Assembly: GCA_000934665.2 (NCBI GenBank)
Contig: KZ537981.1
Coordinates: forward strand, 62,001 to 126,000
Origin: Catajapyx aquilonaris
Lineage: Eukaryota
Direction of reading: 5' to 3'
Length of the DNA stretch: 64,000 bases
Shown: one piece after another, positions 2,615-64,000 of the stretch
Position numbering within the stretch: position 1 is the first letter of the stretch
Layout of the letters: every line of letters starts with the position of its first letter
The notes under the pieces: generated by a model
Database searches by the model: none
The model's input: only the letters and a program-made list of their open reading frames with translations
What the model was told of the DNA's origin: nothing
Made by a program: the position numbers and the translations under genes

Positions 2615-4072
2615 TCCCAAGAAGAAACGCCACATGTCCATGGGTTTGTAGAAAGGGCATTTCTCATTGGGATGGTGATTCGACGCGTATGAGCGAGCCC
2701 AACCCAATGAGAAACGCCCTATATGTGCAAACCCTGTACTTACGACGCGACGTTTCTCCAAAACCAGTAAGGAGGTTTGCAGATAGGGCGCTTCATCTTA
2801 TGACTGTGCTTCGAATGTATGACCCGACCCAAGGAGATGCGCCATATATGTCCATTGGTGTGCACATAGGGCGTTTCTCCTTGGGACGATGATTCAACGC
2901 GTATGAGCGAGCCAGACCCAAGGAGAAACGCCCTATGTAGATGGGGCGTTTCTCCTTTGGGGCGAACATTCAACGCGCATGAGCGATCCCGACCTAATGA
3001 GAAACTAACTCCCGGTGTCCATGGTTGTGCGCATATGACGTTTCTGCTTGGGACGATGATTCAACGCGTATGAGCGAGCCAGACCCAAGGAGAAACGCCC
3101 TATGTAGATGGGGCGTTTCTCCTTTGGGGCGAACATTCAACGCGCATGAGCGATCCCGACCTAATGAGAAACTAACTCCCGGTGTCCATGGTTGTGCACA
3201 TATGACGTTTCTGCTTGGGACGATGATTCAACGCGTATGAGCGAGCCAGACCCAAGGAGAAACGCCCTATGTAGATGGGGCGTTTCTCCTTTGGGGCGAT
3301 CATTCAACGCGCATGAGCGATCCCGACCTAATGAGAAACTAACTCCCGGTGTCCATGGTTGTGCGCATATGACGTTTCTCCTTGGGACGATGATTCGAGC
3401 GTATGAGCGAGCCAGACCCAAGGAGAAACGCCCTATGTAGATGGGGCGTTTCTCCTTTGGGGCGATCATTCAACGCGTATGAGCGAGCCAGACCCAAGGA
3501 GAAACGCCCTATGTAGATGGGGCGTTTCTCCTTTGGGGCGATCATTCAACGCGCATGAGCGATCCCGACCTAATGAGAAACTAACTCCCGGTGTCCATGG
3601 TTGTGCGCATATGACGTTTCTCCTTGGGACGATGATTCGAGCGTATGAGCGAGCCCGACCCAATGAGAAACGTTCTATGTTCATGGTTTTGAAGATGGGG
3701 CGTTTTTTCTTGGGACGGCGATTCAAGCATATGAGCGAGCTAGACCGACCCGAGGAGAAACGTCATATGCCCATGGTTTTAAACATGTGGCGTTTCTCCT
3801 TGGGGCGGTGATTCGAGAGTATGGGCTTGACCCAAGGAGAAATGGTTTTTAACATAAGGGGTTTCTGCTTGGGACGGTGATTCAAGCGTATGAGCGAGCC
3901 CGACTAGATGAGAAAAGCCCAATGGTTGAGATATGGCGTTTCCCCTTGGGATACGGGTGTGTATGAGCGAGCCCGACCCAAGGAGAAACGCCCTATGTCC
4001 ATGGTTTTGCACATTGGGCGCTTCTCTTTGGGTGGGTGATACATGGGAGCGTATGAGCGATCCCGACCTGAC
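2615..4072. repeat. Palindromic minisatellite with about 80-88 bp monomers and a 167-bp dimeric higher-order unit
   Basis: TTCAACGCGTATGAGCGAGCCAGACCC recurs at about 2893, 3060 and 3227. Units carry AAGGAGAAACGCCC-loop-GGGCGTTTCTCCTT. The edges are degenerate. Confidence 0.92.
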
Positions 4073-4080
4073 ATGCGCTG

Positions 4081-5012
4081 CTATGAGGTGGGCAGGTGTC
4101 TGGCTCCGGAAGCAGCGCTCGAAGACACGTTGGGTTCCTTGTCCAGCAGACGCGTCTCCTCCGACGGGGAGTAGTCGGCGAAAAGAAAGTCCTCGTAGTC
4201 GAGCCGTCCGCTTCTCCCGCCGCCGCCGCCGCTACGAGCGAGGGCAGAGGGCGACGGGGTCTGGGAGGGGCCCGACGGGGGCGGCGGAAGGAGCAGCGGG
4301 GCCTGCTGCATGGGCCGCCCTCCGCTCCTGAGCGTCTCCATCTGCTGTCCGCACATGCAGACCGCGCCCCTGGAGGTGGACTGGGCCACCTGGTTGAAGG
4401 GGCAGTGCGGGTTGCAGCACCTGGGGGCCGAGGCGGCGCTCCCTGCCACGGCCACCACCGTGTCCCTGGAGGTCGGGGTCAGCGTGCCCTGGCTGGACTC
4501 GCTGGACTTGCTGCTGGCCCGCTCCAGCCGCTCCTTGGCCCTGTTCTCCACCGCGCTCTCGTCCCGGGCCGCCTTCTCCTGCTGGTACTCGCTCAGGAGG
4601 TCAGCCAGCAGGTCGGCCCGGGGCAATGGCGATTTGAGCACCCGGGGGCGTCTGGACGCGTCCGGATCGTCCCCCACTCCGACGAACTTGATTGGCAGCG
4701 CCTGGGGCTTGGTTCCGATTCGTGGGCCGATCCCTTTAGGCTGCTGAGTGGCGGATCGGACCGGTCCGGGCGTGGCAGGGGGCGGGGCCAGTGGCGGAGG
4801 GGCGTGGTCGGATCTGGGCGCGGTGGGCGGGGTTGGCGTGGCCGAGCTGACGTCTGGGATCAGCTTCTCGGTCTCAGGGTCGTCTGACTTGTGACCGCTC
4901 TCGGACTTCTTCAGGATCGACTTCTTCTTCTCCGGAGGGCTGCCTCCAAGCGAGCGACGGCTATCCAGCGACTCTTCTCCGGACAGGGACGTCTTGGAGC
5001 CAGTCTTCGCTG
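4081..5012 (-). CDS. Shab: Shab terminal coding exon of the long isoform
   Basis: Acceptor TTTCAG|CAG fits phase 1. Encodes KKKSILKKSE...DPETEKLI and a Pro/Ser-rich tail, ending at TAG 4083-4081. GC-rich 310-codon open frame. Confidence 0.85.
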
Positions 5013-5879
5013 CTGAAACCAACCACGAATGCGTCAGGAGAGTGCCCGAAGGATGACACAGACCAACAAGCAAAGCACACTGTCCACATCAACCGCACAC
5101 GAAGGGATTGTTTAACCCAGTATAACCAGAAGTAACTGCTGGCCACATGATTCAAATCCCTCGGATTGCTGGCCTTGATTGGACGATTGGTATCACGTTG
5201 CCATTGCGACGTTTGGAGTTAAGGCAGCACACGTATAGCCACAATGGAGAGCGTTATATTGCAGCTATTCGCCCTTGCAATACTATAATTAGGCATTCCG
5301 CATTGCCTCCCCGCCTGGGATATTCGCAAACTCCCACCCGCCCTTCCCCTGCTTTAAAAATGTCAGATATTGTGCAAGTTGGCAGTAAATGTCTTCAACC
5401 TGTTCATATATTTTTAAAAAAAGAGGCAATGGGACGCTGCGTGCACATTATTGCATTTTTTGCACGCGAAAAAAAAGCCAGGTTGTCGGTTAGGATGGTT
5501 TTTGCGTCATGGAGGTTTTTAGCAATGGGGTCCGGGTGTGTTCATCGCGTGCGACCTTCCTCCCGTTTTCTCTCTCCTTTTGATCGCATCGCGTGCCAAG
5601 GCGGAGAGGTCGCAGGAAGTGACGTCAGCACAAGTGATGAATGAGTGGGGGTGTGCTCCTGGTCATGCCCCGAAAAATAAATATTTTTTAAAAAAAAGGC
5701 GTTGGGAGGAGGTGGAGGAGGGAAGGTTAGTTATCACCGCCACTCCCACTGGATGCCCTACCTCCAGTTTAAATTTTTTTTGGCGTAAGCCAGGGGAAGA
5801 AACCCGTCCTTTTAAAGGATCATTTCCAAAGCAGCAAGTGGAGCCAGCTGTTATCGAGAAAGACAAGTCACTCGAAAAG

Positions 5880-6230
5880 ATGGCTTCTCGCCGAAGGGAA
5901 CGCATTTCAGAAATTAGCAATATGACCTCTCCCCGGTGAGAAGCTATTCTAACAATATGGCTTCTCCCAGATGAGACGCCATTTCAGTAACATTGCGTAT
6001 CTTCTGGGAGAAGCTATTTTAATAACATGCCTTCTCTTCGGAGGGAAGCTATTCCATTAATATTACTTCTCTTCGGAGAGAAGCTATTCTGGTAACATGA
6101 CGTCCCTCAGCGAGACGCCATTCCAGTCATACATGGCTTCTCTTCGGAGAGAGATCATTTCATTGGCAATTTCAAAGGGCACATTCGGTAGAGAGTCATG
6201 CTATAGGCAGAGTAAAGAAATGGCTTCTCT
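5880..6230. repeat. Degenerate tandem repeat of about 37 bp (GAGAAGCTATT...ATGACTTCTCTTCG)
   Basis: Recurrent GAGAAGCTATT and GCTTCTC motifs. Boundaries approximate. Confidence 0.7.
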
Positions 6231-6428
6231 ACCTGATCCATCCACATGTTAAAAGCCACACAACATGAGCCACAGTCCAGTCGGGCCCAGTCTTTTTGAA
6301 CAAATCCTGATTGGTTCATGCTAGAGAGAGTCTAACCAAAGATTACCCACCGATTGCGGTAATCTTCGAGTTGTCGGTATCAAACCGCGGGGATGTGGAT
6401 GACTGAGTTTAGTCGAATGAGAGCTGAC

Positions 6429-6615
6429 CTTTCTTGGCGCCTCCGAGCGAGGAGAGGCCGAAGAGGTGCTGGTTGAGGAGGCGAGTGGCCGAGGCCAGGC
6501 TCCTGCTCGGGATGAAAGAGTGTCTGCGACCTTTCTTCTCCTTGCGGGCCAGGCTGTCCTGTGACCCCTGCCACTGCTGGTGCTCGTCGTCGAAACGCTG
6601 ACGGGGCTGCGGGTC
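6429..6615 (-). CDS. Shab: Shab long-tail exon (DPQPRQRFDDE...SFIPSRSLASATRLLNQHLFG...KK)
   Basis: Acceptor CTTTTATTTGGCAG|GAC, donor AAAG|GTCAGC. 187 nt open, phase 0 to 1, joining both neighbours in frame. This frame is absent from the ORF track. ATR..NQHLFG is recalled from insect Shab tails. Confidence 0.85.
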
Positions 6616-6699
6616 CTGCCAAATAAAAGATAAAGGATCAGCGAATCATCACCAGCGGCGTAAGTCCTGTCGATACTCACAATCGGCACCATTATTAAG

Positions 6700-7180
6700 A
6701 CTCTTTCCAGAGGCCAAAACGTCTCGCCGAAGGGAACGCATTTCACTTCTCCCCGGAGAGAAGGCGTTTCAACAACATGACATCTCTTTGGGAATAAGCT
6801 ATTTTGGAAATATGACGTCTCTTCAAGGAGAAGGCATTACAGTAGCGGGGGAAGCTAATTTATATAATACGTATGACGTTTCGGCAGGGAGAAGCATTTC
6901 CAGTAGCAAGCGTTCTCTCCGGAGAAAAGCTATTCTAGTAATATTGCTTCTCTTCGGGTAGGAGCTAATTTAGAAACACGCCATCTCTTCTGGGAGAAGC
7001 CTTTCCAGTACCATACGTTCTCTCCGGAGGAAAGCTATTCTAGTAATATGACTTCTCTTCGGAAGGAAGCTACTTCAGGAATATTGCGTCTCTTCATGGA
7101 GAAGCCATTCCAGTAGCACGCGTTCTGTCCGGAGGGAAGCTATTCCAGTAATATGACTTCTTGTCAGGGAGAGACTTTCA
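6700..7180. repeat. Second block of the same ~37-bp degenerate repeat
   Basis: Same motifs. TCGCCGAAGGGAACGCATTTCA is shared with the block near 5890. Confidence 0.75.
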
Positions 7181-7234
7181 TTTGCACTTTGTGCCAGTTC
7201 TGCCTGGGCAGCTAGCCCCTCTGGACCAACCCAC

Positions 7235-7933
7235 CTGCTGGAACCGGGTCCTTCTCCGCCTTGAGGCCGGTGACTCCACCAGGCTTCCCCTGCTGCCCCT
7301 GCACTCTCTCTCCTCCGCCAGCTCCCTCAGGGCCGTCTCCAAGGCGGCGTCTCCAGAGGCGCTTCTGACAGCCGCCCTTACGCTCCCTTGCTTGATGGCC
7401 TTTGGCGATCCTCCGCCTCCTGACTCGGGCTCAGGTTGCGGCTGGCACTGGCAGGCCCTTCGACTTTTGGCCATAACTTCGTCCGACGCCAGCGGGTTTA
7501 TGTACAGGTTGTTGACGTCCCCTCCGTTCCCTCCTCCTCCGTTGTTGGTGTTCCCTCCTCCCCCACCGACTTCCCCGTCGCCCAACATGGCGGGCGAACT
7601 GGCGGAGAAGTCGAGCCAGTCCACGTCGATCAGCTCCTGGGAGAGGAATGGGTGTGTGTTGCAGCTTGCATAGGTGTCCGAGCTGTCCATGGTGTCCACG
7701 CTGGCCATGTCCGGCCCCGGGGCGGCTGCGGCGGCGGCGGCTGATGCTGCTGCGGACGACGGGACGACGGACGTCTGGTAGGCGGAGTGTGGCCCCGTGG
7801 TCATCCCTAGGCCGCCGATGAGTGGAGGGGCTTCGGACATGGCCCTCATGTACGAGCTCAGGGCCTTCATCTCGATGTCGTAGCTGCCCGGCTGGTGGAA
7901 GCCATTCTCCGCAGAGATGAACTCGCGGAAGTC
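7235..7933 (-). CDS. Shab: Shab long-tail exon with PRC-like motif (alternative upstream acceptor at 8001)
   Basis: DFREFISAEN...DMASVDTMDSSDTYASCNTHPF...RRRTRFQQ. Acceptor TTGGCAG|GAC, phase 0. Donor CAG|GTGGGT, phase 0. 233 open codons with GC-rich codon usage. Confidence 0.85.
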
Positions 7934-9124
7934 CTGCCAATACCAGACCATGCACTCTTGGTGCTCGTTCCATGACGTGACATGAACAATGCAGGTGGCG
8001 TCTTAAGAGTAAGGGCAGGTCCAACTGGTCCCCAAAATTGCTTCCCCTTCCCCCCTGGGATCCACCTGGGATGACGTAGTAGGGAAGAGCCCTAAAGGAT
8101 ATTGCATCGCTACTCCAAGATTAAAGTTGCATCAAGGCCTCCGGGCCACGCTCTTATATTGCTCGACACCCACCCACCCACACCCCCTTGCCCTCCAGCG
8201 GTTGGTATACTTCCCTGGCTCTTCTGATGCTGCTCTTCTCTCGTCCGCTCACTCCTCACTCGACCTCATCTCACAGCCTGCCTCATAACCCTTAATCAGA
8301 GAAACTTCACAACAATACGTACATTTTTGAGCGTTACCTATACACTAACAGCTACTTTCTGATGGCCGCTAATAGGAACTGCTTAAAACAAGCAGCTTAC
8401 CTGTTAGGGTCAAAAATCGCCAACTGAAATCGCAGGCTAATCTTATGGTAAGGCGCTTTGGACACTTTGCTACATCAACTGATCATATGCCCTTAGAAGG
8501 GTTAACCTATAAGTTTGTCTGGACCATTATGACACTACATGAAAGGTATAAAACTAGACCAAACTCTACCCGGACAATGCAACAACGTACCCATTCTGAT
8601 GAATCCTTGTCGTTATGACCATACCTTATCTTATACAGTATTGAGTATTAGGGTAACAAAGCTGAGACCTCCCACCAACAGGATGTTATTAACTTAATTA
8701 AGTATGTTAACCTGTAATCTCTAGTCACAAAACAGTCCCCATATGAATGTGTGTCACATTTGCGGCCCTGGAACGAGCAAGCGTGCTCGCTACAGGGCCT
8801 CTGTTGCGCTGTGTTGCCATTTCTCCATGAAATTGATCCCGATATGAAATGTGTATACTCAGCACTTCGTATGAAGTACTCGGCCCTGGAGCGATCATAT
8901 ATAATGCTCGCTCGAAATGAGATGTTACATGAAATATGTGCAAGAACGAAAAACGGCGTCGAGAGATGTGGCAACACCGCGCGGCTGCAGCCCTGCAACG
9001 AGCATTCAAGGCCCACGTTTCGCGTTGTTGCCACATCTCCCTTTTGCCTCTTTTGCATACGATTTGATGGTCTTTCCCCCCATATCCCACATGATTCCCT
9101 CCCAGCATCCATCAGTTGACTCAC

Positions 9125-9206
9125 CTGAGCTCGTCACCTTGGGCAGCTACGTATTTTTGTTGTGAAGAGGGATAGCCTCCCCCTGGTTCCCCTCTCGCGA
9201 ATCGCC
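9125..9206 (-). CDS. Shab: Shab alternative exon encoding a short C-terminus GDSREGNQGEAIPLHNKNT* (TAG at 9149-9147)
   Basis: Acceptor GTTACAG|GGC and consensus donor CAG|GTGAGT. The phase-0 peptide resembles the recalled end of the short Drosophila Shab isoform (GECIPLRANSV*). Not in the supplied ORF track. Confidence 0.75.
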
Positions 9207-9976
9207 CTGTAACATAATGCATCGGCAGGGTTTATCCTACAACCATCGGCTCTCTTCTATTGGCCCACCAATGATTGACGGACTCATCCAAACAAATTAA
9301 TAAGAAGAGTGGGGAGGGAGGGGGGGAGGACTTTGATCAAAAACTCAAGATGATGCCAATTTATAACAAAAATTAATCCCACATGCTTGTATCAAAAATT
9401 GTGTGTTTTTTTGACAAAGATTGGGGTAGAAAAAAATGGGGGGAGTATTTATCATCTCACAAACAAATAATACAAAGCTAATATTTACATCTAATTGAAT
9501 AGTTATATTGTAGGTGATTTTAATGCTAATTTCGGTATTTACAATATGTACAGAGTTGAAAGCTTTTAACGCGTGAGACGTGGCGCGTGGTGGTCAAGGC
9601 CGGTTAACAGAAATCATAGCAAAATCACAGATCATGAGTTCATGACTCTGGAAGTACTGTACATTGAGGAAAACGATGTCAGTTCAGACTGTCGGTACAA
9701 AGTAGAGCATGAGGACTGTGCAGAAGGATATCGCTTCTTATCTCATTAGATGGCAGAACTATTGGTTGAGATGGCCTTTTCGCCAGATCATAACGTTCCG
9801 ACTCGTCCCGGACCGTTGTTCCCGTCTGTTCGCGCAAAACAGTGCGTTTGTCCACCGCACGCCACTTGCAAAAAAAACTCATAAAGCCAGCGTTCAAAGT
9901 GTGTGCGTAAAAAAAAAAGGCTGACCTCTTCTCCACACGCGTGCAAATACAAAGGACAAGCAGTCCCACAACTTAC

Positions 9977-10066
9977 CATGGGTTTAACAGTGTGCAAAAG
10001 TGTCCTTGCACGCGTGTGTTGGGGAAGAGGTTGGAAAAGCAGCGGCTGGCAACACTGGTGGTGAAG
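9977..10066 (-). CDS. Shab: Candidate 90-nt symmetric cassette exon of Shab (LHHQCCQPLLFQPLPQHTRARTLLHTVKPM)
   Basis: Long polypyrimidine tract ending TTTTACAG|, donor ATG|GTAAGT, exactly 30 open codons in phase 0. No homology recognised. Confidence 0.5.
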
Positions 10067-10513
10067 CTGTAAAACCAGAAGGAAGCGGAGAGAAGGAGAA
10101 AAGTCAAGAGTGCCAAGGGAAGAAAACCAATGTCAAACAAGGAAGGTGCGAGAATAGCCGGGGGGCGAAAACTCCCCCAGTTAATCAAACTTGTGTTAGC
10201 GATAATTTAAATAATTGAATAACAGCTTTCTTTATTATTTCTATTAAAAAACCATGCAGCGAGCGAGCGCCATGGCCATGTAGGATAAAACATTGCCTTG
10301 GAGTGTTAAACCGTCACGTTCCATGAGACTTTCCGGTGTGCGGCTAGTGCGCTCGAAAACGCAGCTCTTTGCTTTGCTAAACTTCCGTCACTGAGCTTCG
10401 TGCATAGACCGGGGGGTCCATATTATACCCTCCAGTTAGTCGGTTGGGTCAACACCGCCAGCAAAAATCAAATTTTTGGAGAATAAAGTACCTCCAACCC
10501 TGTGTGTCACGTG

Positions 10514-11198
10514 GCAGTGACAGTGCTCAGGACACTTCGTTAATATTGAATGTAAGTTAATTCCTTTGTAGGTAACCTCACAGGTGAGTTAATCCCTCTG
10601 TAGAATAATCCACAACGGAATTAATCCTTTGATAGATTAATCTACTGACGTGTTAATCCACATACGGATTAATCCCTGGTAGAATAATCAACTGAAGTAT
10701 TAATCCGCATGTGGATTAATCCCTTAGTAGACTAATCCACTGAAATGTTATGCATAATTTATTGGTAGAATAATCCACATGAGTCTTAATCTGCGTATGG
10801 ATTAATCCCTTGGTAGAATAATCCACAGGTGGATTAATCCTTTGGTAGATTAATCCACTGGAGTGTGTTAATCTACATTTTGAATAATCCCTGGTAAAAT
10901 AATCCACTGCAGTGTTAATCAGCATGCGGATTAATATCTTGTATAATAATATACTAGCATGTTAATCCATTTCGGAATTATAATCCCTTGGTAGGATAAG
11001 CCTCTAGTAAATTAACTAATGAGTAAATCATTGAAAAATATATTAATGTGCTGGTAGGTTTACTGGGCCAGCTATCTTGATTGTAACATGCACTAGTTCA
11101 ATTGACTGGTAGTTTAATATCAGGTGGTAGATAAATCAATATCAGTGGAAGCTTAAGTTTAGCTCTCAGCCATATAATTTCCTGAATATTGTCACTGC
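10514..11198. mobile_element. Old TIR-bounded element containing a degenerate TAATCC minisatellite (about 10580-11000)
   Basis: GCAGTGACAGTGCTCAGGA ... TCCTGAATATTGTCACTGC is a 16/19 inverted match. Internal TAATCCAC/TTAATCCC repeats. Confidence 0.55.
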
Positions 11199-11332
11199 AG
11201 ACACTTTTTTTATAATTTTTTATTTATATAAACTTTTAATTATTTTGCTGACGGCGTCTCTGGGATGGAGCATACCACCCCTGTGATTGGTCAGGAACGA
11301 AGATCCAGTGAAGGAGGCGAACCTTATTGGTG

Positions 11333-11400
11333 GAGTGAGTGAGTGAGCGAGTGAGTGAAGTGAGCCAAGTGAGTGAGTGGGGTGAGTGAGTGAGTGAAGA
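11333..11400. repeat. Imperfect (GAGT)n microsatellite
   Basis: gagtgagtgagtgagcgagtgagtg... Confidence 0.85.
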
Positions 11401-13654
11401 GCGAGCGGTATGTACACACACTGTGCATCAGTCATCTCTCATCATCCCCTGGCATGATGATAAGGGGGCTGAGTGTGATTCGTGCAAAAAAAAAAAAAAA
11501 TCATCTTTAGGCCTAGCAGACTCCAAGACCCGAGTTGGGCTGCAGGGAGGCCTTCCGATTGGGTAGAGGGATATGTCAAAAAAAAATATGAAGGATTCGG
11601 ATATTCGAAAGATAAGTCTCCTTAGCCCAGCCCAGCGTCTGTTGCTCTTTCGCGTGTTTCCCAGGAGGAAGAATGAAACGGAAGAAGGCTTCAAACAGAT
11701 ACTCTTCGCCCAAGATGAGCGAGAGCAGAAGGGGATAATATGTGTTCCCCCAACTAGGCAATGTTGGACATTGCAGACTCCACAATGGTGACAAGTCACA
11801 CTCAGGGCTGGTGGTACCCAGGAGTATGCAAGTGCCAAAGGGTGCCTAGGAGGAGTAGAGGATACCCAGCACAAGACTGCATCGGAAGTGTGGTCGGAAG
11901 TTACCGCTATGACCAAATCTTTTTATAATTTATGCAACATTATTCTTAGACTTTACACTTGCAACTCTACAGTTTATCGGTTTTAGCGATAACTTCCGTC
12001 CATATATCCAGTGTGATCTCGAACTAGTTGTCCCATAAATATCGCGTCAAAAATGTGACATCACAAAGCCACGTCTTCCCAGGCAGCTTCAGTGCTGGGC
12101 TGTGTGACGTATATGGAGAGTGGTTACTCTGTGACGCCACAATCACCTCTCATTCCGTGCACTGTACAGGGTGATTCAGCAATATCTAACGATTCTAACC
12201 GATACCGCGCGGCTGTTTATGGAAACAGCAAGTGGTGTCTGGCAGCTACGTGTAAACAACATTTTAAGCCAATAATCATCAAACTATCATGCGGGTGACT
12301 ACCGCTAACTGTAGCACATCCAGCCACGCGATCCTGCTGAATCACCATGTAGAGTGATCTTCATTCTACAACGACACTGTACATCAGGGGGGTGGGGAGG
12401 GAGGCAGGGTTGTAACTATCTGGGGGGAAAAAAGTTCCTGACAATTCATCAGTCAGCTTGACACTAACACCACAAAAGATTGCACGGTTCAAAATAAACT
12501 GGACTGTTAGGAGGAGACAAAGAGGGGACATGACAAGAACACAATACTTCAAGAACTAAACTAATGTTGGGGAATAGTAGTAGGGCCTAGTATAGGCTAA
12601 CTTGGAAGAGGATCATGGGGATAAGCAGAAGGATTCTCAGGAGTGGAACAGAAGGAATGGGGAGGAATAAGTTTCGCCAATATCTGAGTATCCCAGGGAA
12701 TCAGCACCCCCATCCCTCCTGATTTTCCACCAGGAATTTCCCTTAGGGAATTCCCCAGGGAAACTCCCTCCCGGACACCGACCTTTTCAGCCCAAATCAC
12801 GTTTATCTAGGCTTCGTCTCTCAACAAGATGGCGGAGGTGACAGCATGAGAAGGAGGGCTAGGAAGAGATGTAACGTGTGCTGCTCAAACTACAACACTC
12901 AAGTCGTAGGATCTGACCTGGATCCTACTATAGTGGGACACATTCCGCTGTATAACTGGTGTCTCATAAGCAACTACACTACAACTACGCTAACGGTCAA
13001 AGTGCAGGCCTTAAAAAGTGGTGTAAGTGCAATTTGAAGTCATGTTTTCCAGCACAGGTAACTAGAAGGATGTCACTACTTAGCAACAGTGTATACACAC
13101 GGACAGAATAAGTGAGCCGGGCTGGAAAAATACCCAGTGTCTGTACCGCATATTTGCAAAGAGCAAATAAGAAAAGATCAGGTACTTTTCGATACAGGTC
13201 TCAGATGTGGGCGAGACTCAGGAAAAGAACAAGTATGGCGCAGGCGGAAGAGTAAACAAAGCTGCAGTATGCAGTAGAAGTAGTAGTAGGGTAACGGAAT
13301 GAACCTCGAATATCTCTGATAACGTCGAGGGAGTCCAAGGATGGGCCAAATCAGAGGGCGTCTGGAAGGAGAGAAGAAGAGAGACCAAAAAGACAAGACA
13401 TGACACAACTGCATTCTGTCACACTTGGCATTGGGAGGGCGGGAAAGAATCAAGAGAGTTTATACGTACAGGACGCACCCACAGACTCACACAACAATTA
13501 TTATTATTGTACACGAAGGCTGTACATGGACAATTAGTGCGGTGTGTGCCGAACGGTAGGACACGTTTGGGACACTTCATGTCGGCTATCGGACCTGTCC
13601 AACCATCAAGACACCCTGGCGGCCAAGGCCTCAATCTGGCAACCACAGTATATT

Positions 13655-14225
13655 TATATCGATAAAATTAATTCCATATTGATTTATCGATACTTATTGT
13701 TGTAAACATAAATGAATATCGATACGTTACTAAATTTATGACTTACGCGGAAAGATTGTCCAGGTTGAACATTTCATATCGATCCACATGAAAATCGACA
13801 TCGATATTTGATGTATCGATACATGAAGTTGGATGATCGATCTTTTCATACATGGAAATATATGAAATAGCAATATTAATCGACAATATCGATAACTTCG
13901 ACATTGATTATATCGATAATTTCGTACATCGATACTTGAAGTTAGATGTTAATGGTATCGATATTCTTCATGTGTCGATATAAATGCGGCTCGATATTTT
14001 GACATATGCATCCAAAATAAGTTCGACTGCAATATTATATCGATACGAATTATACCGATATTGATTGCACTGTACGATACTGGCATGACTATCGATACGG
14101 CTCGCACACAAATGGGCTCGGCGGGTATATCGATATTTTCATATATTGTGCGCTGATACAATATTGAAACCCGATTTTGAAAACAACTACGTATCGATTA
14201 TATCAAGGTGAGCATCGATACAAGT
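13655..14225. repeat. ATCGAT-rich degenerate dispersed repeat
   Basis: Very dense ATCGAT/TATCGATA/CGATAT words in AT-rich sequence. Related tract at about 47905-48790. Confidence 0.75.
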
Positions 14226-15884
14226 CATTACAATATGTTACGTCGCAAATGCGCAATAAATTGTCCTCGAAGGTAGGCTACATAGTCATCTTTTCCGTTT
14301 CCAAATCCGATTGTCTGTTGATTGAGTTTAATAGTTACGAGTCAGTGGCCGCCGGGGTGCTTTCAGAAGAAGATGATGGGTTTTCCTGTTTCCCGGAAGT
14401 CGCTTTCCTGTTTTCCAAGCAACAATGGTGATGACATTACTTCCTGAACGCGAGTAACCTGCCCCGCAGCCTTCTCAGCAGGGCTGGGTGGAGACTTCCT
14501 TATAATGTTTTTGAAAAGGCGCATATTTTTATTGGATCGGCCTACTTGACATCCAGACGTCAAATGCTCGGTGATGCGATTGACTTCCTATTTTTCTGCC
14601 AACCAGACGCCAAAGGCCAAAGCAATTCTGAAGCCATCTTGGACCGACGATACAGCATATCATGAATCCAATATGTCTTCAATCAATTAATAATGGTATG
14701 GCCTTAGAAGTGGCAACGCCCACATAGGATTTTATTGGCTGGAACGGAGGCCAATCAGATTCAGGCTCCCTGCTCTGCCGCCATGTTGCATCCATGACGT
14801 CACATTACAAAATGGCGTCGAGTTCATGCACACGATGGCGGGCATTGCACAAGCCGCTCTACTAAACACAAACGGTCTTTGGAAGGGTAGTAAACATGGC
14901 ATCAATGTGGTGTTGTGTCAATATGACTGACGGCCTGTCGTCGGTAAAGTCACGACCTCTCGTCTTACACATGTCACAAGGTTTGTCTCTTTTATCTTTT
15001 TCTAATAAATAAATATATAAAGTGTATATGGAGCGCGAACCTGGAGCCAATCCCTTTGCCAGCAGGTCGTCGCAGGTCCCCCAGCTCAGGCAGGAAGGCC
15101 GCGGGGCAGGGAGTCACGCGACGCAACTGAAGGTCACGCGACGTAACGCGTCGCCCCTTCCCCCACCAAAAGTGCCCCCATCGCTACGGTCCTACCACTC
15201 TTTACCACCGGGGTTATCTAGCTGGGCGGAAGCAGGGGCTCGCATTGCTCCTGGAGCTCCTGGAGCTGCTGGAACAAAAGACGGGGTGCTGGCTGGCCTC
15301 TGGAGTCACACACCTAAAGGGGCACACACACGCACACACCGTACCCTACAACACTCAACTGGACGACGAGCTGCCTGTCCCGGCCTGCAAGTCATCAAAT
15401 AGCACGATGGAGCAACCGCAATCTGTAACGGCTCGGTGTACTGGCCATAGCACGAATGAACTCGAATCACGGTAACTGTAGCGCTGAAGGCTACTGTTAG
15501 CCTGATTCTGGTATCTGATTCCCGCGAGAATAGACCGGGCCTCATTCAGAAACAGTATGCTTAAACCCTCCTAACACTTGGTTAGTGTGACTTGCGGTGT
15601 TGCCACGTTGTGACTTTCACTTACCCTCACCACACACGCAGTTACAGATTGCTCGCTGATCTCCAGTCATTCAAGCCCACACGGATGCAAACCACCGATT
15701 CGACCACAGGCTGGCAAGAAATGGGGGGTTTAGACCACCATTTTCAGAGAGGGGACTGGTGGATTGGGAGGGGGATGGATGAAAGTGGGGGGTGGTGCCG
15801 TTACGAACATGCTACAGGTACAGGCATCGCTACCGGAGTCACTACGTGCACCAGCAAGCGGACAACCTGGTTACAAAAGCAGTA

Positions 15885-15955
15885 CAGGGTGGTTCAAACT
15901 CAGCATTCATATTTTTCCATCAAAAACTTCAGTAAGGTAGTTAATAAACACCCTG
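15885..15955. mobile_element. 71-bp Tc1/mariner-type mini-MITE
   Basis: TA|CAGGGTG ... CACCCTG|TA, the same terminus as the 207-bp MITE. Confidence 0.55.
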
Positions 15956-15988
15956 TACACTATTCGCCCGATGCTGTCCAAAATGCAT

Positions 15989-16996
15989 CTTCACGCCGGT
16001 TGTTCGTCGTTGAGTTGTCTACACGACGACGTTCGGTCGTTGGTCGTTTGGTAGAATAATCCACTGGCATATTAATCTATATGGGGTTCAATCCCTCGGT
16101 AGAATAAATCCACTGGTGACTGGTGCATTAATCCACATGGGTTTAATCCCGGGATAAAATAATCCACTGGTGTATTAATCCACATGGGTTTAATCCCAGG
16201 GTAAAATAATCCACTGGTGTATTAATCCACATGGGTTTAATCCCGGGGTAGAATAATCCACATGGGTTTAATCCCGGGATAAAATAATCCACTGGTGTAT
16301 TAATCCACATGGGTTTAATCCCGGGGTAAAATAATCCACATGGGTTTAATCCCGGGATAAAATAAACCACTGGTGTATTAATCCACATGGGTTTAATCCC
16401 GGGGTAAAATAATCCACATGGGTTTAATCCCGGGATAAATTAATCCACTGGTGTATTAATCCACATGGGTTTAATCCCAGGGTAAAATAATCCTCTGGTG
16501 CCTTAATCCACATGGGTTTAATCCCGGGGTATAATAATCCACTGGTGTATTAATCCGCATGGGTTTAATCCCGGGGTAAAATAATCCACATGGGTTTAAT
16601 CCCGGGATAAATTAATCCACTGGTGTATTAATCCACATGGGTTTAATCCCAGGGTAAAATAATCCTCTGGTGCCTTAATCCACATGGGTATAATCCCGGG
16701 GTAGAATAATCCACATGGGTTTAATCCCGGGATAAAATAAACCACTGGTGTATTAATCCACATGGGTTTAATCCCGGGATAAAATAATCCACATGGGTTT
16801 AATCCCGGGGTAGAATAAGCCACTGGTGTATTAATCCACATGAGTATAATCCCGGTGCGGTGTCAGCAACAAGGTTCTGTACTAATTGGCGATTCCCGAG
16901 GGGAAACCTTGTCAACGACCTGAACGACCAACGACCAAAGATCGAACGACGTCGTGTGGACATCTCAACGACGAAAGACAAAAGACCGACGTGAAG
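15989..16996. mobile_element. Non-autonomous element with long imperfect TIRs enclosing a 47/31-bp TAATCC minisatellite (about 16050-16855)
   Basis: The left arm CTTCACGCCGGT..TTCGTCGTTGAGTTGTCTACACGACGACGTTCGGTCGTTGGTCGTT matches the reverse complement of about 16923-16996. Internal units of 47 and 31 bp often form a 78-bp pair. Confidence 0.8.
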
Positions 16997-18119
16997 GATC
17001 CTCAGAACTTTTTAATATTTTTGGACCGCCTCGGACTATAAATTAACCCACTGCCTACTACGCTTACTTTAAAAAATTGCAACCCCGGTCTATCTACTGC
17101 GCATGCGCCGCATTCCCCCTTTTTTTCCCCCCGCGCAAAAGGTTTTTCTTCGAGGGTGTGAAACTTCCCCCTCAAAACAAACAAAAAAAAAGCGAAACAT
17201 GTCAATCCGCTGCTTTTTAAATATAGATATTAAAATAGAGAGATGGGGTTGTAAAAAATTAAAAAAAGGTACGGTCTACACTACCTTCGAGGTGCAAAAG
17301 CAACAATCGATCTGTTCACTGGGGATTTCCTCGGAATATCTCTCGGGTTTCTTTGCTCTTTTCGTGCGTTCCTACNGGGGGGGGTGAGGTCAGGAGGGGG
17401 GAGAAAGTCACATATGAGTATGAGAAGAAAAAAAAAGTGCAGAAAGTACAAGAAATAACCAATTTCTTCAGCGGAAAAGTCTAATATCACAGATTCAGGC
17501 CCAATTGTGGCAACACTGGCGGAGTTGTCACCAGAGGAGCTGTCAACGCTGTTACTTGGCCAGTGTTGCCAGATCTTCTGGCTACTTTTTGTCGTTACCA
17601 TGTTTGCATTGAATGGTATAAGGTTGTAAACCAGTGAGAAATTAATAATATGCTGGTCGTGCTACTTCCGGACCGGATTGTAAACTGCGACCGGTTTCTC
17701 CGTCTACGAGCTTGCACCCTTTAGACATTCGTACGAGGACTCGTAACATGCTCTCTCTCAAGGTGCTTTCACACTAGAGGGTCAAACGCGTTCGAGACGT
17801 GATCACGTGAAAATGAGCCAGCGTCTTTAGAGCGTTTGTCCTCGGTTGCGTTCACAAGCTTGCGAGAACAGGTATCGAGATGAGCCAGTTCTTCCCAGCT
17901 TATGGACACCATCACTTTCTCTCTGTTTAGCCTCAGTGAGCAAGAAACGAACTTAAAATGGGGGTGGATTGGGTGCGAGACGACACATTTTGGTGGAGGA
18001 CTGAATAAGGCACCAGGCGGTTACATGAGCATGCGACGTGTGAGAGAGAGAGACGCGGTCGAGACGTGAGTTGCGGGGGGCATAAGTGCATTGTATAGTG
18101 TGTGTGTCCATGCCCTTAC

Positions 18120-18451
18120 CGGAGTGTAGAATCCGGGCGAATTGAGCGGGTGCATCACATCCTGCTGGTTGTTGGCCTGTTGTTGCAGTTGGAGCTGTTG
18201 CTGTTGCGCGGACGCCGACACAGGTATGTCAAGCAGGTGGGGCGAGGTCGGATTGATGACCCCTGGAGGCAGGCTGGTGCCCTGCGAGTTGCGTCTCCGG
18301 TCTTTCATCCCCCCGGCCGAGAGGCCCAGGGCGTGCTCGTGGTTTTTGTAGCACCCTGTCCCGGTGTTTCCGACGTGTTTCCCCCCGCCGGCGCCTCCCC
18401 CGCCGCTCTCTCCCCCGGTGCTGTTTGCGTCCGCCTGGGACATGTTGTGTC
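18120..18451 (-). CDS. Shab: Shab/Kv2 coding exon 4 (C-terminal tail)
   Basis: (G)HNMSQADANSTGGES...TGTGCYKNHEH resembles insect Shab GHNLSQTDGNSTEGES...TGTGCYKNYDH. Acceptor CCTTCCAG|GA fits phase 1. Donor CCG|GTAAGG, phase 0. Confidence 0.92.
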
Positions 18452-21400
18452 CTGGAAGGCGCATGGCGTCTACACTCCTGGCCCCCCCGCCCTTCCCCTA
18501 TCAAAGCAGCACTCTCCCCATCCAGAGGGACAAAGTGACAACAACGACAACATACAAAACATAGACAGACAACGAAGACGTCCACTACAACGACATACGT
18601 ACGTAGTGTACCACTAGTGGCCAGGCGTGTTTGCCCAGGGGCAGCGCAGGCCCACCCATCGGGAGAAGTGGAGGATCAGGGGGTGGCCATCAGAAATGGG
18701 GAGAGAAACAAGCATAGGAGCAGGAGGATAAACAGGAGCAGGAGGAACAAAAGAAAGAGCAGAGTCACGATAACTGTGGCGCTGAAGGCAGGGCCTGCTC
18801 CACCCCTAGAGCCCTGCACGCCTCTGGCTCCATGACATGCGACGGTTTAAGAACCGTGTCCGGTTTCTACGGATTATTTCGGGTGTCCAGCGAGGGGCAG
18901 ACTCAGATAAATGCATGCACAGACCTCGCTATGTGCTGGCTCCCCATTTGATCAAATCGCGTGGGTCGCTTTTTTTTTTTTTTTTTTTTGAATTTTCGAC
19001 AGGGGAGTCTTAGCTACTAAAGCGGCACGGTATGGGTACGGACCATGCAACGTGGTCCTTTTCATTATTTGAGGGGGGATCCACTACCCTGCCACTAACG
19101 TCTAATACTCATGATGGCACTAGAAATGACGTCACGGCCTGATAAACAAGGCGGGACGTCATTTGACCGCCATTTTATTGCGGTGCCAGACGGCGCCCAA
19201 GGGAAAACGACGATCCCCCGTCAATCATTTGCATGTTACCTGCCTTAGAGTTGCTAAGTGATACCGACACAACCAGGTATAAACAAAAGTCTTAACCACT
19301 GAAAGCCAATAATCATGTTTTAATCGTACCAATTGCTATTATTTTATCAGTTGCTTAGTTCATACCTGCCACATCCAGTGTTGGGCAGAAACTAAATTGA
19401 AGTTATTTCATTACTATTGTTTACTCTTAAAAATAACACATGTAAAAATTAAAATATTAAAATGTTACTCTCGAGGCCAAAGATATGATTCGACTTTTTC
19501 TTCAATTTTACTTTGGGAAGTACCCTGAAATTATTTGAAATTTAGTTTAACGTTCATGTATCTTGGCAACTGACAGTATTTGCAACTCTATAACAAGTCT
19601 TTTGTTGTCTTAGTAACTTGGCTAAAACAATCCCTTTAGCTGGATACTTTTTGTCTGATTCTGAGTAACTTGAGTAGAAAGCCTTGTTTGTTTGTTAGTA
19701 CGGTTCGTTTCTCGTTCTATTTACGCAAGTACATGCCTAGTACAAGTAGAACCTAATAATATGTAATTATGTAAAACCATTGATTAATTACTTATTGTGA
19801 GTAAAACATGTTCCCTTAGTCTTTGAAATTAAGCAATGATATTCAAGTACTGTAGTTACGTGACTACAAGTAGTGCCATGTAACTCTGGCATTATCCGAA
19901 TAATTGAGCTAACAACTAGGGTAGTTACTTTTTGTCTTAATAACTAGTCAGTAACACCACTTACTAGCACGTAGTAAGTACTAGTTAATTTTTTTTTAAA
20001 AAAAATAGAATAAGTTCTCCAACTCTGGTTGCATCAGTTGAGACATGAATGACTCGCCCTGTAAGATTTGACTTTTTGAAGAGCTCACTTTACAACCACT
20101 TGCTTTTTTCCCAGTGGATTTCACAAGCGTCCAATCAGAAGCGAGAGATTGATCCCATTCATTCCTAATGAGGCGCATTCAATTAGCCACCCCCTCCCTT
20201 TGAATAGGGTAAAAAAATATATATCGATTGGGATCCTTCCCCTGAATAAAACCGAACATATTTACGCCACATGATGAAAAATTTCCATGGTCAAATGATC
20301 CCCTGATAGAGGGTGCGTGACCTTTTTGCCCTGAGGTCACTGGTCTCTACGCCTACGTCTCAGGTAAGAGGGTAAATATTGCGGGGGCGTGTCTATGTAT
20401 GCCTCTATGCGATCAGTCTTGATCCCATGCAAACCGAGTGGCGTGTCATGGTGCATGCCCGCCTGCCTATATAGAAGCCTCCATCAAAAAAAAATAATCC
20501 AGGAATTATTCATTTGATAGCCAATGACCGATGCTGACTTCGTGACCTGAATCGACAGGAAATGGCCTGTCGATATATGTGCAACAGGGGGTTTATATGG
20601 CCAGGCATGTGTCTTAAGAAATGGGACTGCTGCTGGTCTGGCCAATTTAACTCGGCGTGGCGACTGATATTTTTGTGAATCGTCATCGCCCATAGTTCTG
20701 GTTATTTTTTGACAATTGATTTGCTAAGGCAGGCTCCACGTCACGCCACTGACTGACTACCTTGTAAGCTCTGTCCTCTACTCTGAGTAAAAGTCGAATG
20801 AGCCTCATCCTACGAGTCTGTCTGCAAAATATAAGACTGGGGGGTGGGGGCTGGGTAATAAAAGTGGGTGGTATAAGATAAAGAGAGAGAGTGGATGGGG
20901 GGCTAAGACTTTGAATCTTACGTAGTAGAGTAATTGCTCGATCGGTTTACACACGCGAGATTTGGGGACACTCGGAAGATAAACACACGTCACAGAGGTA
21001 CACACTTGAGGGGGTGGCAACCAATATGGCAGCCGCCCCAGAATGTCCGAGCGAGTGCTGTAAAGAGGCGAGAAATAGAATAACGAAAAACCAGGGACAC
21101 AATAAGGAGAGTCCAGGGATAGCATCACACAAAGGGCCAGGAATAAGTGACTCGGGCGTGACTCACAGACGCGATTTTAGGCCGCCATTTTTTTTAGGTC
21201 AATGGTGACGTCACGACTGTCGCCTATTGGTCGGATTCGAGGCCAATCACAGGGCAGGACACAAACCCCTGCCAATCAGGTGCTTGCATTTCAAAACAAA
21301 TGTGGGGCCTGTCCGCGATGCAAGGTCATCCTCCATTGGGCCACTGCAGAGCCAACTGCAAGACATTTTAAGATGTAATCTCGAACCTGATTGGTTCGAT

Positions 21401-21906
21401 CACCCAATTGGCTTTTCCAGTGGGCCAATCGGAAGCGACGCTCGAATCGGTCATTGCCCTGATATCTTGTTACTAATTAATTAGCGCATGACAAAATGTA
21501 CTCTACCCAGGCATTCTTGGAAGCTGCCGACTCCACCCCTTTCTGTTGGCCACCCAATGACTTGGCGGGATGGAGGAGGATACACCCCTACCAGTGGACA
21601 TGGAAAGAAGGGGGGTGGCGTTGGCAGCAGCCAAGAATGCCTAGATAGAGTATATGGGGGTGTGAAAAGCATCACTATGAAACCTATACTTGCAGGCCTT
21701 TTTCATAATGGCATATGTAGTACAGGCCTTTCCCCCGTCACCGACCAATAGGACCATCCACATACGAACAAAACGGATTTGTCCTCACAATCTCCCGAAC
21801 AAAGATGCTAAGTGTCACTTTACAGGAAACCAGTAGTGCTGCTTGCACTCTTTTAAGACAAGAACTGCTAGACAGAATAAGAACTGTTAAAATGCACTGA
21901 CTTATA

Positions 21907-22113
21907 CAGGGTGGTCCAAGTTCAAGTGTCGTTTTATAACGGCGATTAATAGCAGTGACTTTGCGATGACGTAGCAGCGACGCGTAAAATGTCCCACTTC
22001 GGCGCATCTTCGGCGCAATCGAAGTGGGCAATTTTACACGTCGCTGCTACGTCATCGTTAAGCTCTTCTATTAATCGCCGTTATAAAACGACACTTGAAC
22101 TTGGACCACCCCG
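21907..22113. mobile_element. 207-bp fold-back MITE (Tc1/mariner-like), copy 1
   Basis: TA|CAGGGTGGTCCAAGTTCAAGTGTCGTTTTATAACGGCGATTAATAG ... CTATTAATCGCCGTTATAAAACGACACTTGAACTTGGACCACCCCG|TA. Almost entirely palindromic, flanked by TA. Confidence 0.93.
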
Positions 22114-22383
22114 TATAGTAGAAACTGTAATTACTGCACTTCTCAAAAATACCAATCTTCTTATATACCGTATATAAGAAGGTAAAGTTTGTCTGCATGT
22201 AATCTTGTTGGTGCTAATTCAGTACGTATACTGATTACTTTGTCAAAGATGGCGACCGTAGCTATAGTAATGAGTCACAGCCAGAGACACAGCATATTAT
22301 AGTACAGTATACACACAAAAAAGAAAGAACTATAGTATAGTGAGAGAGGATGGAGAGCACATTGTGCAGACAATGAGACTGAC

Positions 22384-55042: not shown

Positions 55043-55390
55043 TCTTACATAATAAATCAAGACAGTTTGTCTGCATGTCCGGGCTACCTAACCCACTTTT
55101 GTAGCACTGAGAGCAATGAAACTTGCATCTATATCTCTGCATATAAAACGGAGAGTTTGTCTGTATGTACGGGCTACCTGACCCACTTTTGTAGCACTGA
55201 GAGTGATGAAACTTGCATATCTATATCTCTGTACATAAAACGGAGAGTTTGTCTGTTTGTACTGGCTACCTGACCCACTTTTGGAGTACTGAGAGTCCTG
55301 AAACTCTTGTCTCTACATCTCTGTACATAAAACAGAAAGTTTGTCTATATGCCCGGGATACCTAACCCACTTTTGGAGTACTGAGAGGGG
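55043..55390 (+). repeat. Tandem array of about 90-bp units, probably Helitron-derived, in the last TRIT1 intron
   Basis: Four copies of AGTTTGTCTG..TG..CGGGCTACCT.ACCCACTTTT...CTGAGAG. The array begins A|TCTTACATAATAAA. Confidence 0.8.
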
Positions 55391-56605: not shown

Positions 56606-56618
56606 CTGGAACAAATCA

Positions 56619-63929: not shown

Positions 63930-64000
63930 CTGACTTACAGGTTAAGGAACCCGCATCATAAATGTGCCCATGGGTTTAGTCAAAATAATCATCACCGGAA

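What the first reader, a model, noticed from the sequence alone, without database searches (positions are those of the whole stretch)
9125..9206. Stop-containing cassette exon that could toggle Kv2 between a short and a PRC-bearing long tail
Seen: an 82-nt exon with good splice sites encodes GDSREGNQGEAIPLHNKNT-TAG and has a consensus donor only 22 nt after the stop, so it looks internal rather than terminal. Including it gives about 713 aa. Skipping it (18120 to 7933, both phase 0) gives about 1299 aa including the PRC-like motif. Known: the vertebrate Kv2 PRC motif binds VAP and drives clustering at ER-plasma membrane junctions. Inference: one small exon may switch the channel between a non-clustering form and a clustering, junction-forming form.
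Basis: partly seen in the sequence, partly recalled or inferred. Interest (0 to 1): 0.75.

Follow-up and report, generated by a model that had tools for sequence, protein, structure and literature searches.

The report
Conserved short-tail exon of Shab channel
An 82-base exon with its own stop codon in an arthropod Shab (Kv2) potassium-channel gene appears to be the conserved exon that makes the known short form of the channel, which lacks the tail motif thought to anchor it at ER-plasma membrane contacts; it is a real feature of an already known kind.

Summary
On the minus strand, 9206..9125 has an AG acceptor, 19 codons (GDSREGNQGEAIPLHNKNT), TAG at 9149..9147, and CAG|GTGAGT 22 nt later. 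My gene model reproduces 713 aa with the exon and 1299 aa without it.

Splice sites alone do not exceed chance: the exon ranks 13th of 6463 AG..GT pairs in its intron, and 5 antisense pairs score as well.

Conservation is what supports it. An unnamed, beetle-like Shab sequence (P0156) ends with a 19-residue tail directly after the conserved CCFCTSK exon, at the same position and with the same length. Against that tail, the window peptide ranks 1st of 2190 stop-terminated 19-mers in all six frames. A crab gene model has a similar tail (rank 8 of 2190).

A 2025 preprint already states that Drosophila Shab makes PRC-lacking short forms and PRC-bearing long forms by alternative splicing.

Whether the 9125 donor is used (internal cassette) or the exon is terminal could not be tested. 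No RNA run was listed. The perfect donor and the absence of AATAAA/ATTAAA before the next exon mildly favour internal use.

Interest is modest.

The parts
29573..30003 (-). Shab coding exon 1 (ATG at 30003; ends ...KALN + AG, donor GTAGCC)
   Evidence: ORF list; tblastn to decapod and Drosophila Shab; junction read
27888..28362 (-). T1 (tetramerisation) domain exon, RRVSINVGG...SIAAR, donor GTGAGT
   Evidence: 88.9-89.5% identity to five full-length Shab proteins by tblastn; junctions
22384..23227 (-). Core exon S1-S6 and pore, ends ...VIVDT + G (phase 1), donor GTCAGT
   Evidence: About 90% identity to many insect Shab proteins; 2431 proteins at E<=1e-30, best 120 listed
18120..18451 (-). Exon 4, (G)HNMSQADANS...GFYTP, ends phase 0, donor GTAAGG
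   Evidence: homologs
17285..17371 (-). An N lies 5 nt upstream of its acceptor.
   Evidence: tblastn hits to the CCFCT[TAS]K exon of Cherax P0003, Palaemon P0005 and P0156; sequence
9125..9206 (-). The finding: 82-nt exon, 19 codons GDSREGNQGEAIPLHNKNT, TAG at 9149..9147, then 22 nt to the donor
   Evidence: Rank 1 of 2190 stop-terminated 19-mers against the P0156 tail; alignment A1
9119..9124 (-). GTGAGT donor (CAG|GTGAGT), the strongest donor in the gene by my crude score; its use is not shown
7235..7933 (-). Tail exon DFREFISAENG...RFQQ (699 nt, phase 0-0) carrying the PRC-like motif
7637..7702 (-). PRC/ncFFAT-like motif SVDTMDSSDTYASCNTHPFLSQ
   Evidence: The core [ST]D[ST][YF][AS]SC is present in 42 of 138 retrieved Shab proteins of 493 aa or more. 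Conservation across Bilateria is stated in the preprint.
6429..6615 (-). Tail exon DPQPRQRF...RHSFIPSRSLASATRLLNQHLFGLSSLGGAKK (phase 0 to 1)
   Evidence: tblastn to Drosophila willistoni long isoform P0006, E=4.6e-5
4081..5012 (-). Last coding exon of the long isoform, stop at 4083..4081
   Evidence: tblastn E=1e-26 to 1e-31 to decapod tails

Best explanation
The window holds an arthropod (pancrustacean) Shab/Kv2 gene on the minus strand. Segment 9206..9125 is a conserved alternative exon that encodes the last 19 residues and the stop codon of the short Shab isoform. When it is spliced in after exon 4 (18120), or more likely after the CCFCTSK exon (17285), translation ends at TAG 9149..9147. 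That gives a 713- or 742-aa channel with the full T1 domain and pore but none of the ~585-residue distal tail, so it lacks the PRC/ncFFAT-like motif in exon 7933..7235. When it is skipped, the 1299- or 1328-aa long form is made. Shown here: the anatomy, the two reading-frame outcomes, and similarity of the peptide, its position and its length to a short tail in another arthropod Shab. Inferred: the exon is used in this species; the short protein is functional and does not bind VAP or cluster; and the exon is internal, meaning the 9125 donor is used and the long-tail exons then become 3' UTR. I put internal use at about 0.6, conditional on the exon being real.
For: Anatomy and frames: (713/742 aa with the exon, 1299/1328 aa without).

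Conservation, P0156:
- P0156, an unnamed representative, reads ...EEIPSEFECCFCTSK|ECRDGRCQGECIPLSTKSV and then ends.
- The window reads ...EEIPSEQIDCCFCTSK|GDSREGNQGEAIPLHNKNT*. Both tails have 19 residues, the same phase-0 entry, and 7 of 19 identical without gaps.
- In an end-anchored BLOSUM62 comparison with all 2190 stop-terminated 19-mers of the window in six frames, the candidate is first (score 21; next 17; mean -20.8, sd 9.1).
- By local alignment it is again first (42 against 33).
- P0156 residues 1-264 are an out-of-frame reading of the T1 and core exons, and the rest runs in frame through exon 4, exon a and the tail. Its source is therefore a spliced sequence, not genomic read-through.

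Conservation, crab: the Scylla model P0011 ends ...SVFNK|EEGEEVAESEQIPLRSQPSS. The candidate ranks 8th of 2190 against it. P and L are invariant in the four-tail alignment.

Gene order fits: the exon lies between the CCFC exon and the D[FY]KEF exon, where the tail sits in P0156.

Literature: Drosophila Shab has a short isoform without the ncFFAT/PRC site and long splice variants with it (bioRxiv 10.1101/2025.09.21.677649, passages).

For internal use:
- CAG|GTGAGT scores highest of the gene's donors by my crude score: 8.0 against 1.2-5.2 for the five other donors scored correctly.
- No AATAAA or ATTAAA lies on the minus strand between 9124 and 7934, where 1.5-2 are expected (P of none 0.14-0.23). 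The nearest downstream is at 6023.
Against: - There is no expression evidence. No RNA run could be listed for this DNA, so no junction was seen.
- Splice-site quality is within chance: 13th of 6463 pairs, with 5 equal or better on the antisense control.
- The homology rests on short peptides. Only 1 of the 56 that contain the CCFC exon stops 19 residues after it; the other 55 run on for 177-704 more residues.
- The Homarus tail gives no signal (rank 593 of 2190). Scylla P0011 and Homarus P0002 are genome-project gene models of unknown support.
- The runner-up scores 17, so the margin is real but not overwhelming.
- The PAS argument is weak: P of none by chance is 0.14-0.23, and non-canonical signals exist (AATATA at 8160).
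- A targeted search for more short tails found only the query itself (1 protein of 5 candidates).
Confidence: 0.78

Rival explanations
1. Terminal or composite exon. The exon is real and makes the short isoform, but its transcripts are cleaved and polyadenylated in the downstream intron. The GTGAGT is not used, or serves only as a U1 site that competes with polyadenylation.
For: Both gene models with a similar tail (Scylla P0011, Homarus P0002), and P0156, simply end there; nothing shows a following exon. A variant hexamer, AATATA, lies at 8160. Absence of canonical hexamers over 1191 nt has a chance probability of 0.14-0.23, so it is not decisive.
Against: A perfect 9-nt donor consensus lies 22 nt after the stop. 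No AATAAA or ATTAAA lies before the next exon, and the nearest is at 6023, beyond two further exons.
Confidence: 0.3
2. Not a used exon. It is a chance AG..stop..GT segment, or a decayed relic of the short-tail exon that is no longer spliced in this species.
For: Splice-site scores are within chance. Other pseudo-exons in the same intron score higher, for example 10066..9977, which is 90 nt and open in frame 0. No RNA evidence was available.
Against: Rank 1 of 2190 against the P0156 tail and rank 8 of 2190 against the Scylla tail. The length, entry phase and place in the exon order all match. The frame is still open for exactly the 19 codons and the stop is in place, which is not what a decayed relic would show.
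Confidence: 0.12
3. Pure poison exon. Inclusion serves only to send the mRNA to nonsense-mediated decay and lower Shab dosage; the truncated protein has no role.
For: If the exon is internal, the stop lies upstream of three exon junctions and about 1.9 kb of former coding sequence, plus the normal 3' UTR. That is an NMD-prone layout.
Against: The peptide itself is conserved (QGE.IPL..K). That points to selection on the protein end, not just on a stop. [quoted passage not shown]
Confidence: 0.08

Closest known systems
Drosophila Shab short and long splice variants (bioRxiv 10.1101/2025.09.21.677649, section 'Shaker Kv2 Subfamily', passages read)
   Same: One Shab gene makes a short form without the ncFFAT/PRC site and long forms with it, by alternative splicing. 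The window gene has the same two outcomes. From memory only, not checked here: the classical fly short isoform ends in a peptide of this type directly after the CCFC exon.
   Different: The preprint passages I read do not describe the exon architecture (a stop-containing exon followed by a donor). I did not see its Fig. 9. The species here is different and is not close to any annotated one: exon 4 is at most 51% identical by BLASTP, and 54% for the best near-full-length match.
P0156, unnamed arthropod Shab sequence with the tail ECRDGRCQGECIPLSTKSV. Its exon 4 is nearly identical to that of Callosobruchus analis P0030.
   Same: A 19-residue tail directly after ...CCFCTSK, with the shared residues Q, G, E, I, P, L, K in the same columns and the protein ending at the same place.
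   Different: It has three cysteines that the window peptide lacks. Its DNA and what follows its stop are unknown. Its name and source could not be looked up (one search did not complete).
Decapod RefSeq Shab isoforms that skip the PRC exon in frame: Macrobrachium rosenbergii X6, X7, X8 and Portunus trituberculatus X5 (P0010, P0008, P0009, P0013)
   Same: They also remove the DS[ST]DTFASC motif by alternative splicing. Of the 9 full-length decapod proteins fetched, 4 lack the motif and 5 carry it.
   Different: They keep the frame and the distal tail (...EKPRPF... to ...SGLN[ST]). No stop-containing exon is involved. In the window, exon 7933..7235 is 699 nt and phase 0-0, so the same in-frame skip is possible there too.
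Vertebrate Kv2.1/Kv2.2 PRC (non-canonical FFAT) motif binding VAPA/VAPB at ER-plasma membrane junctions (review PMC6380216, passages; cited)
   Same: An acidic, serine-rich motif in the distal C-terminus. The preprint reports it conserved across bilaterian Kv2 channels.
   Different: As far as I recall (not searched), vertebrates do not remove it with a stop-containing exon. VAP binding by any arthropod Shab was not shown in anything I read.

Membership tests
Shab / Kv2 voltage-gated potassium channel gene | T1 (BTB) domain plus a six-transmembrane pore module, most similar to Shab rather than to other Kv subfamilies | tested here: met
   tblastn gives 88.9-89.5% (T1) and 82-87% (core) identity to decapod and Drosophila Shab. 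The core exon is about 90% identical to more than 100 proteins named Shab that carry PF02214, PF00520 and PF07885.
Short-isoform C-terminal exon of arthropod Shab | Lies after the ...CCFCT[ST]K exon and before the D[FY]KEF exon, and is entered in phase 0 | tested here: met
   Exon order is 17371..17285, 9206..9125, 7933... P0156 has the tail directly after CCFCTSK.
Short-isoform C-terminal exon of arthropod Shab | About 19-20 codons with the QGE.IPL-type motif, followed by a stop | tested here: met
   7 of 19 identical to P0156 without gaps; rank 1 of 2190. Rank 8 of 2190 against Scylla. P and L are invariant in four tails. The Homarus tail is not significantly similar (rank 593).
Short-isoform C-terminal exon of arthropod Shab | Present in mature mRNA of this species | not testable with these tools
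   No RNA run was listed and no genome is held for the window.
Internal stop-containing (poison-type) cassette exon | Both the acceptor and the donor are used, so the stop lies upstream of later exon junctions | not testable with these tools
   Only indirect evidence: a perfect donor 22 nt after the stop and no canonical poly(A) hexamer before the next exon.
Internal stop-containing (poison-type) cassette exon | Exon-containing mRNA is degraded by NMD | not tested
   Needs an experiment.
Kv2 PRC / non-canonical FFAT motif | Conserved acidic, serine-rich motif in the distal tail | tested here: met
   SVDTMDSSDTYASCNTHPFLSQ at 7702..7637. The core is found in 42 of 138 retrieved arthropod Shab proteins of 493 aa or more, in 41 distinct contexts. 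Likeness to the vertebrate motif rests on the preprint, not on an alignment of mine. PDB sequence searches gave nothing relevant.
Kv2 PRC / non-canonical FFAT motif | Binds the VAP MSP domain and clusters the channel at ER-PM junctions | not testable with these tools
   Needs an experiment. No paper I read shows it for an arthropod Shab.

The most novel reading that the evidence does not exclude
The exon is a three-way switch rather than an on/off switch. If the 9125 donor joins the alternative acceptor at 8001, the single base carried over from the 82-nt exon plus the 68 nt from 8001 to 7934 restores the frame of the long tail. The TAG is then the only barrier. Conditional bypass of that TAG, by stop-codon readthrough or by A-to-I editing of UAG to UGG (from memory, Shab is an ADAR target in flies), would give a long, PRC-bearing channel with a 50-residue insert. 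The same mRNA without bypass would give the short channel. A less exotic part of the same reading is that short-form mRNAs carry the whole long-tail coding region as 3' UTR, which would couple isoform choice to NMD or mRNA localisation.
Probability: 0.03. Interest if true: 0.65.

Novelty: new member of a known kind. Interest (0 to 1): 0.3.

Why it matters
It places the switch between short and long Shab forms at a defined 82-nt exon in a crustacean-like arthropod. It also suggests that the short-tail exon (peptide, length and stop) is older than insects: a beetle-like sequence, a crab model and this genome share it. Together with the 2025 proposal that the Kv2 VAP-binding site is ancestral to bilaterians, this gives a concrete handle, one exon, for testing whether invertebrate neurons regulate a non-conducting, junction-forming role of Kv2 by splicing. 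The concept is already in print for Drosophila. The gain here is annotation, plus one open architectural question: whether the exon is an internal stop cassette or a terminal exon.

Tried and rejected
- RNA evidence: the look-up of sequencing runs on 4000-9300 listed no RNA holder (none was listed). Read laying could therefore not be used.
- Own genome: none is held.
- Earlier notes of this scan: nothing relevant.
- Targeted search for more short tails, with Scylla P0011 residues 473-528: only the query itself came back, 1 protein of 5 candidates.
- The listing of cluster members for the names of P0156 and others: not answered because the database is switched off.
- Homolog of decapod exon 'b' (..EGPSSRYLA..): not found in the window by tblastn at E<5.
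- Repeat check: 8600..9500 matches only itself in the window, so the exon is not part of a repeat family here.
- PDB sequence searches with the PRC exon and with the 40-residue motif: only spurious low-complexity hits, or none.
- Literature:
  - 'Shab + alternative splicing + C-terminal + isoforms': 842 papers, and the 20 listed were irrelevant.
  - 'Shab + CG9965': 0 papers.
  - 'Shab + Drosophila + long isoform + potassium channel': 0 papers.
  - bioRxiv 10.1101/2025.09.16.676508 turned out to concern cacophony isoforms.
  - PMC13643278 mentions Shab isoform M but not tail structure.
  - The lobster search gave nothing on shab splicing in its listing.
- Other high-scoring pseudo-exons in the intron (15755..15625, 8534..8401, 12503..12346, 13361..13134) have stops in all frames or no homology and were set aside.
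- The predicted pairing of the exon's 5' end with its donor was not pursued. The z-score of -2.9 is dominated by the downstream hairpin.

Full report
**What is in the window**

The minus strand from about 30003 to 4081 carries a Shab/Kv2 potassium-channel gene. tblastn with decapod and Drosophila Shab proteins, together with direct reading of the junctions, gives nine coding exons:

- exon 1: 30003..29573
- T1 domain: 28362..27888
- S1-S6 core: 23227..22384
- exon 4: 18451..18120
- exon a: 17371..17285
- the candidate: 9206..9125
- tail exon with the PRC-like motif: 7933..7235
- second tail exon: 6615..6429
- last coding exon: 5012..4081

The core exon is about 90% identical to many insect proteins named Shab and 82-83% identical to decapod Shab. 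Exon 4 is at most 51% identical by BLASTP to anything, and 54% for the best near-full-length match. The species is therefore a pancrustacean without a close annotated relative in these databases. No whole genome is held for it.

**Checking the observation**

ACG TAG, 19 sense codons (GDSREGNQGEAIPLHNKNT), TAG at 9149..9147, 22 further bases, then gtgagt. The phases at 18120 and 7933 are both 0.

It encodes ...EEIPSEQIDCCFCTSK, the counterpart of the conserved ...CCFCT[TS]K exon of decapods and insects. With it the products are 742 and 1328 aa.

**Is it more than chance?**

On splice sites alone, no. I used a crude donor and acceptor score, with recalled frequencies, for ranking only.

- The exon ranks 13th of 6463 AG..GT pairs of 40-250 nt in its 9351-nt intron.
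- The antisense strand of the same interval has 5 pairs at least as good, and other introns have 0-3.
- Its acceptor score (0.32) is typical of the gene's real acceptors, which are mostly weak (-4.7 to 7.0).
- Its donor score (8.0) is the best in the gene.
- CAGGTGAGT occurs once on each strand of 4000..30100.

**What turns it into a real feature: conservation**

An exhaustive HMMER search of representative proteins with exon 4 returned 26 hits. One of them, P0156 (500 aa, unnamed), reads ...KKTEKLEEIPSEFECCFCTSK|ECRDGRCQGECIPLSTKSV and then ends.

tblastn shows that P0156 residues 1-264 are an out-of-frame reading of the T1 and core exons. Residues 265-500 run in frame through core, exon 4, exon a and the tail. 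Its source is therefore a spliced sequence with a frame error, not genomic read-through.

The window reads ...EEIPSEQIDCCFCTSK|GDSREGNQGEAIPLHNKNT*. It has the same preceding exon, the same phase, the same 19 residues and the stop at the same place, with Q, G, E, I, P, L and K identical.

For an objective test I compared the P0156 tail with every stop-terminated 19-mer of the window that has no internal stop, in all six frames (2190 peptides).

- End-anchored and ungapped: the candidate is first (score 21, 7 identities; runner-up 17; mean -20.8, sd 9.1).
- Local alignment: first again (42 against 33).
- Against the tail of the crab model Scylla P0011 (...SVFNK|EEGEEVAESEQIPLRSQPSS): 8th of 2190.
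- Against the Homarus P0002 tail: no signal (593rd).
- In the four-way alignment only P and L are invariant.

Short tails are rare in what I could retrieve. Only 2 of 157 proteins end in [IVLK]PL plus 2-9 residues. Only 1 of the 56 with the CCFC exon stops 19 residues later; the other 55 continue for 177-704 residues. A targeted search for more found only the query itself.

**The long tail and the PRC-like motif**

Exon 7933..7235 encodes SVDTMDSSDTYASCNTHPFLSQ at 7702..7637. The core [ST]D[ST][YF][AS]SC is present in 42 of the 138 retrieved proteins of 493 aa or more, in 41 distinct contexts, with strongly conserved flanks (S.DS[ST]DT[YF]ASC.T[HQ]PF.SQ).

A 2025 preprint (bioRxiv 10.1101/2025.09.21.677649; I read passages of its Kv2 section) makes four relevant statements:

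- The ncFFAT/PRC site is conserved in Kv2 channels across Bilateria.
- It is absent from the originally published short Drosophila Shab isoform.
- It is present in long splice variants.
- In Drosophila, forms with and without the site are made by alternative splicing.

I did not see its figure. My own attempt to align the motif to solved Kv2 or VAP entries found nothing relevant.

**How it most likely works**

Including the exon ends the protein after the T1 domain, pore and proximal tail, at 713 or 742 aa. Skipping it gives the long, motif-bearing form of 1299 or 1328 aa. These frame outcomes are shown.

Three further points are inferred from vertebrate work and the preprint: that the short form is made here, that it is a working channel, and that it lacks VAP-dependent clustering.

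The exon is not the only possible switch. Decapod RefSeq models skip the motif exon in frame (Macrobrachium X6, X7, X8 and Portunus X5; 4 of the 9 full-length decapod proteins fetched). The window's motif exon is 699 nt and phase 0-0, so the same skip is possible here.

**Internal cassette or terminal exon?**

In favour of internal use:
- A perfect donor lies 22 nt after the stop.
- No AATAAA or ATTAAA lies on the minus strand between 9124 and 7934. The nearest is at 6023, whereas the region beyond the long-form stop has three (1749, 1420, 1165).

Against over-reading this:
- Zero hexamers in 1191 nt has a chance probability of 0.14-0.23.
- A variant, AATATA, lies at 8160.
- None of the homologous sequences tells us what follows the stop.

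I put internal use at about 0.6, given that the exon is real. If it is internal, the short-form mRNA carries about 1.9 kb of former coding sequence plus the normal 3' UTR after its stop. That would make it a candidate for NMD or for 3'-UTR-based control.

**Comparison with what is known, and novelty**

The feature works like, and by position, phase, length and motif appears to be an ortholog of, the short-isoform C-terminal exon of insect Shab. The splicing-based presence or absence of the PRC site is already in print for Drosophila.

What is new here is limited to three things:
- the exon in this species;
- the indication that it predates insects (crab model, this genome);
- the unresolved observation of a consensus donor just after the stop.

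I rate it a new member of a known kind, with modest interest.

**Limits**

- The homology evidence rests on 19-20-residue peptides from one unnamed spliced sequence and one genome-project gene model.
- The splice-site scoring used recalled frequencies.
- I recall, but did not verify, that the classical Drosophila short isoform ends in the same kind of peptide.
- Names for the unnamed proteins could not be looked up.

Noticed in passing
It is optional in decapod RefSeq isoforms. A single N lies 5 nt upstream of its acceptor.
   Followed up: yes
window 8963-9039, with a related arm at 8784-8825: Strong hairpin about 86 nt downstream of the cassette donor: 19-nt arms, 95% complementary, 39-nt loop, plus a third, 42-nt, 76% complementary copy. 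It dominates the fold of 8940-9230 (z = -2.9). It could be a small inverted-repeat element or a splicing-regulatory structure. It has no other copy in the window.
   Followed up: partly
window 9977-10066 (minus): The best-scoring pseudo-exon of the intron: 90 nt, open in frame 0 (LHHQCCQPLLFQPLPQHTRARTLLHTVKPM), phase 0-0 compatible, with better splice scores than the candidate. I saw no homology to it, so it may be chance or a lineage-specific cassette.
   Followed up: partly
window 7934-8001 (minus): The frame of the PRC exon stays open for 23 codons upstream to an AG acceptor at 8001. Its pyrimidine tract scores better than that of the conserved 7933 acceptor (0.69 against -1.35). 82 nt + 68 nt = 150 nt, so cassette plus 8001 is frame-neutral apart from the TAG. 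I estimate the chance of such a coincidence at roughly 0.1.
   Followed up: partly
window 7235-7933 (minus): The motif-bearing exon is 699 nt and phase 0-0, so it can be skipped in frame, as in Macrobrachium isoforms X7 and X8 and Portunus X5. That is a second possible route to a PRC-less channel that keeps the distal tail.
   Followed up: partly
proteins P0146 and P0150: Another, unnamed Shab-like lineage ends a few residues after the exon-4 equivalent (...PIKAQ|VGQKEVH and ...SIKPQ|VGPKEAH). The V is consistent with read-through of a GT donor, so it may be a different way of making a short tail.
   Followed up: no
window 52505-63941 (minus): Exons of a second gene with ORFs that, from memory of the family, resemble tRNA isopentenyltransferase (e.g. 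...VVGGTNYYIESLLWDVL......RRQVKWIRNRFL...), upstream of Shab on the same strand.
   Followed up: no
window 16140-17020: Tandem repeat family of roughly 47/31-nt spacing, rich in AATAAA/ATTAAA on the minus strand (regularly spaced hits; repeated ORF peptides ...PGLNPCGLFYPGIKPMWINTPV...). It lies inside the large intron.
   Followed up: no
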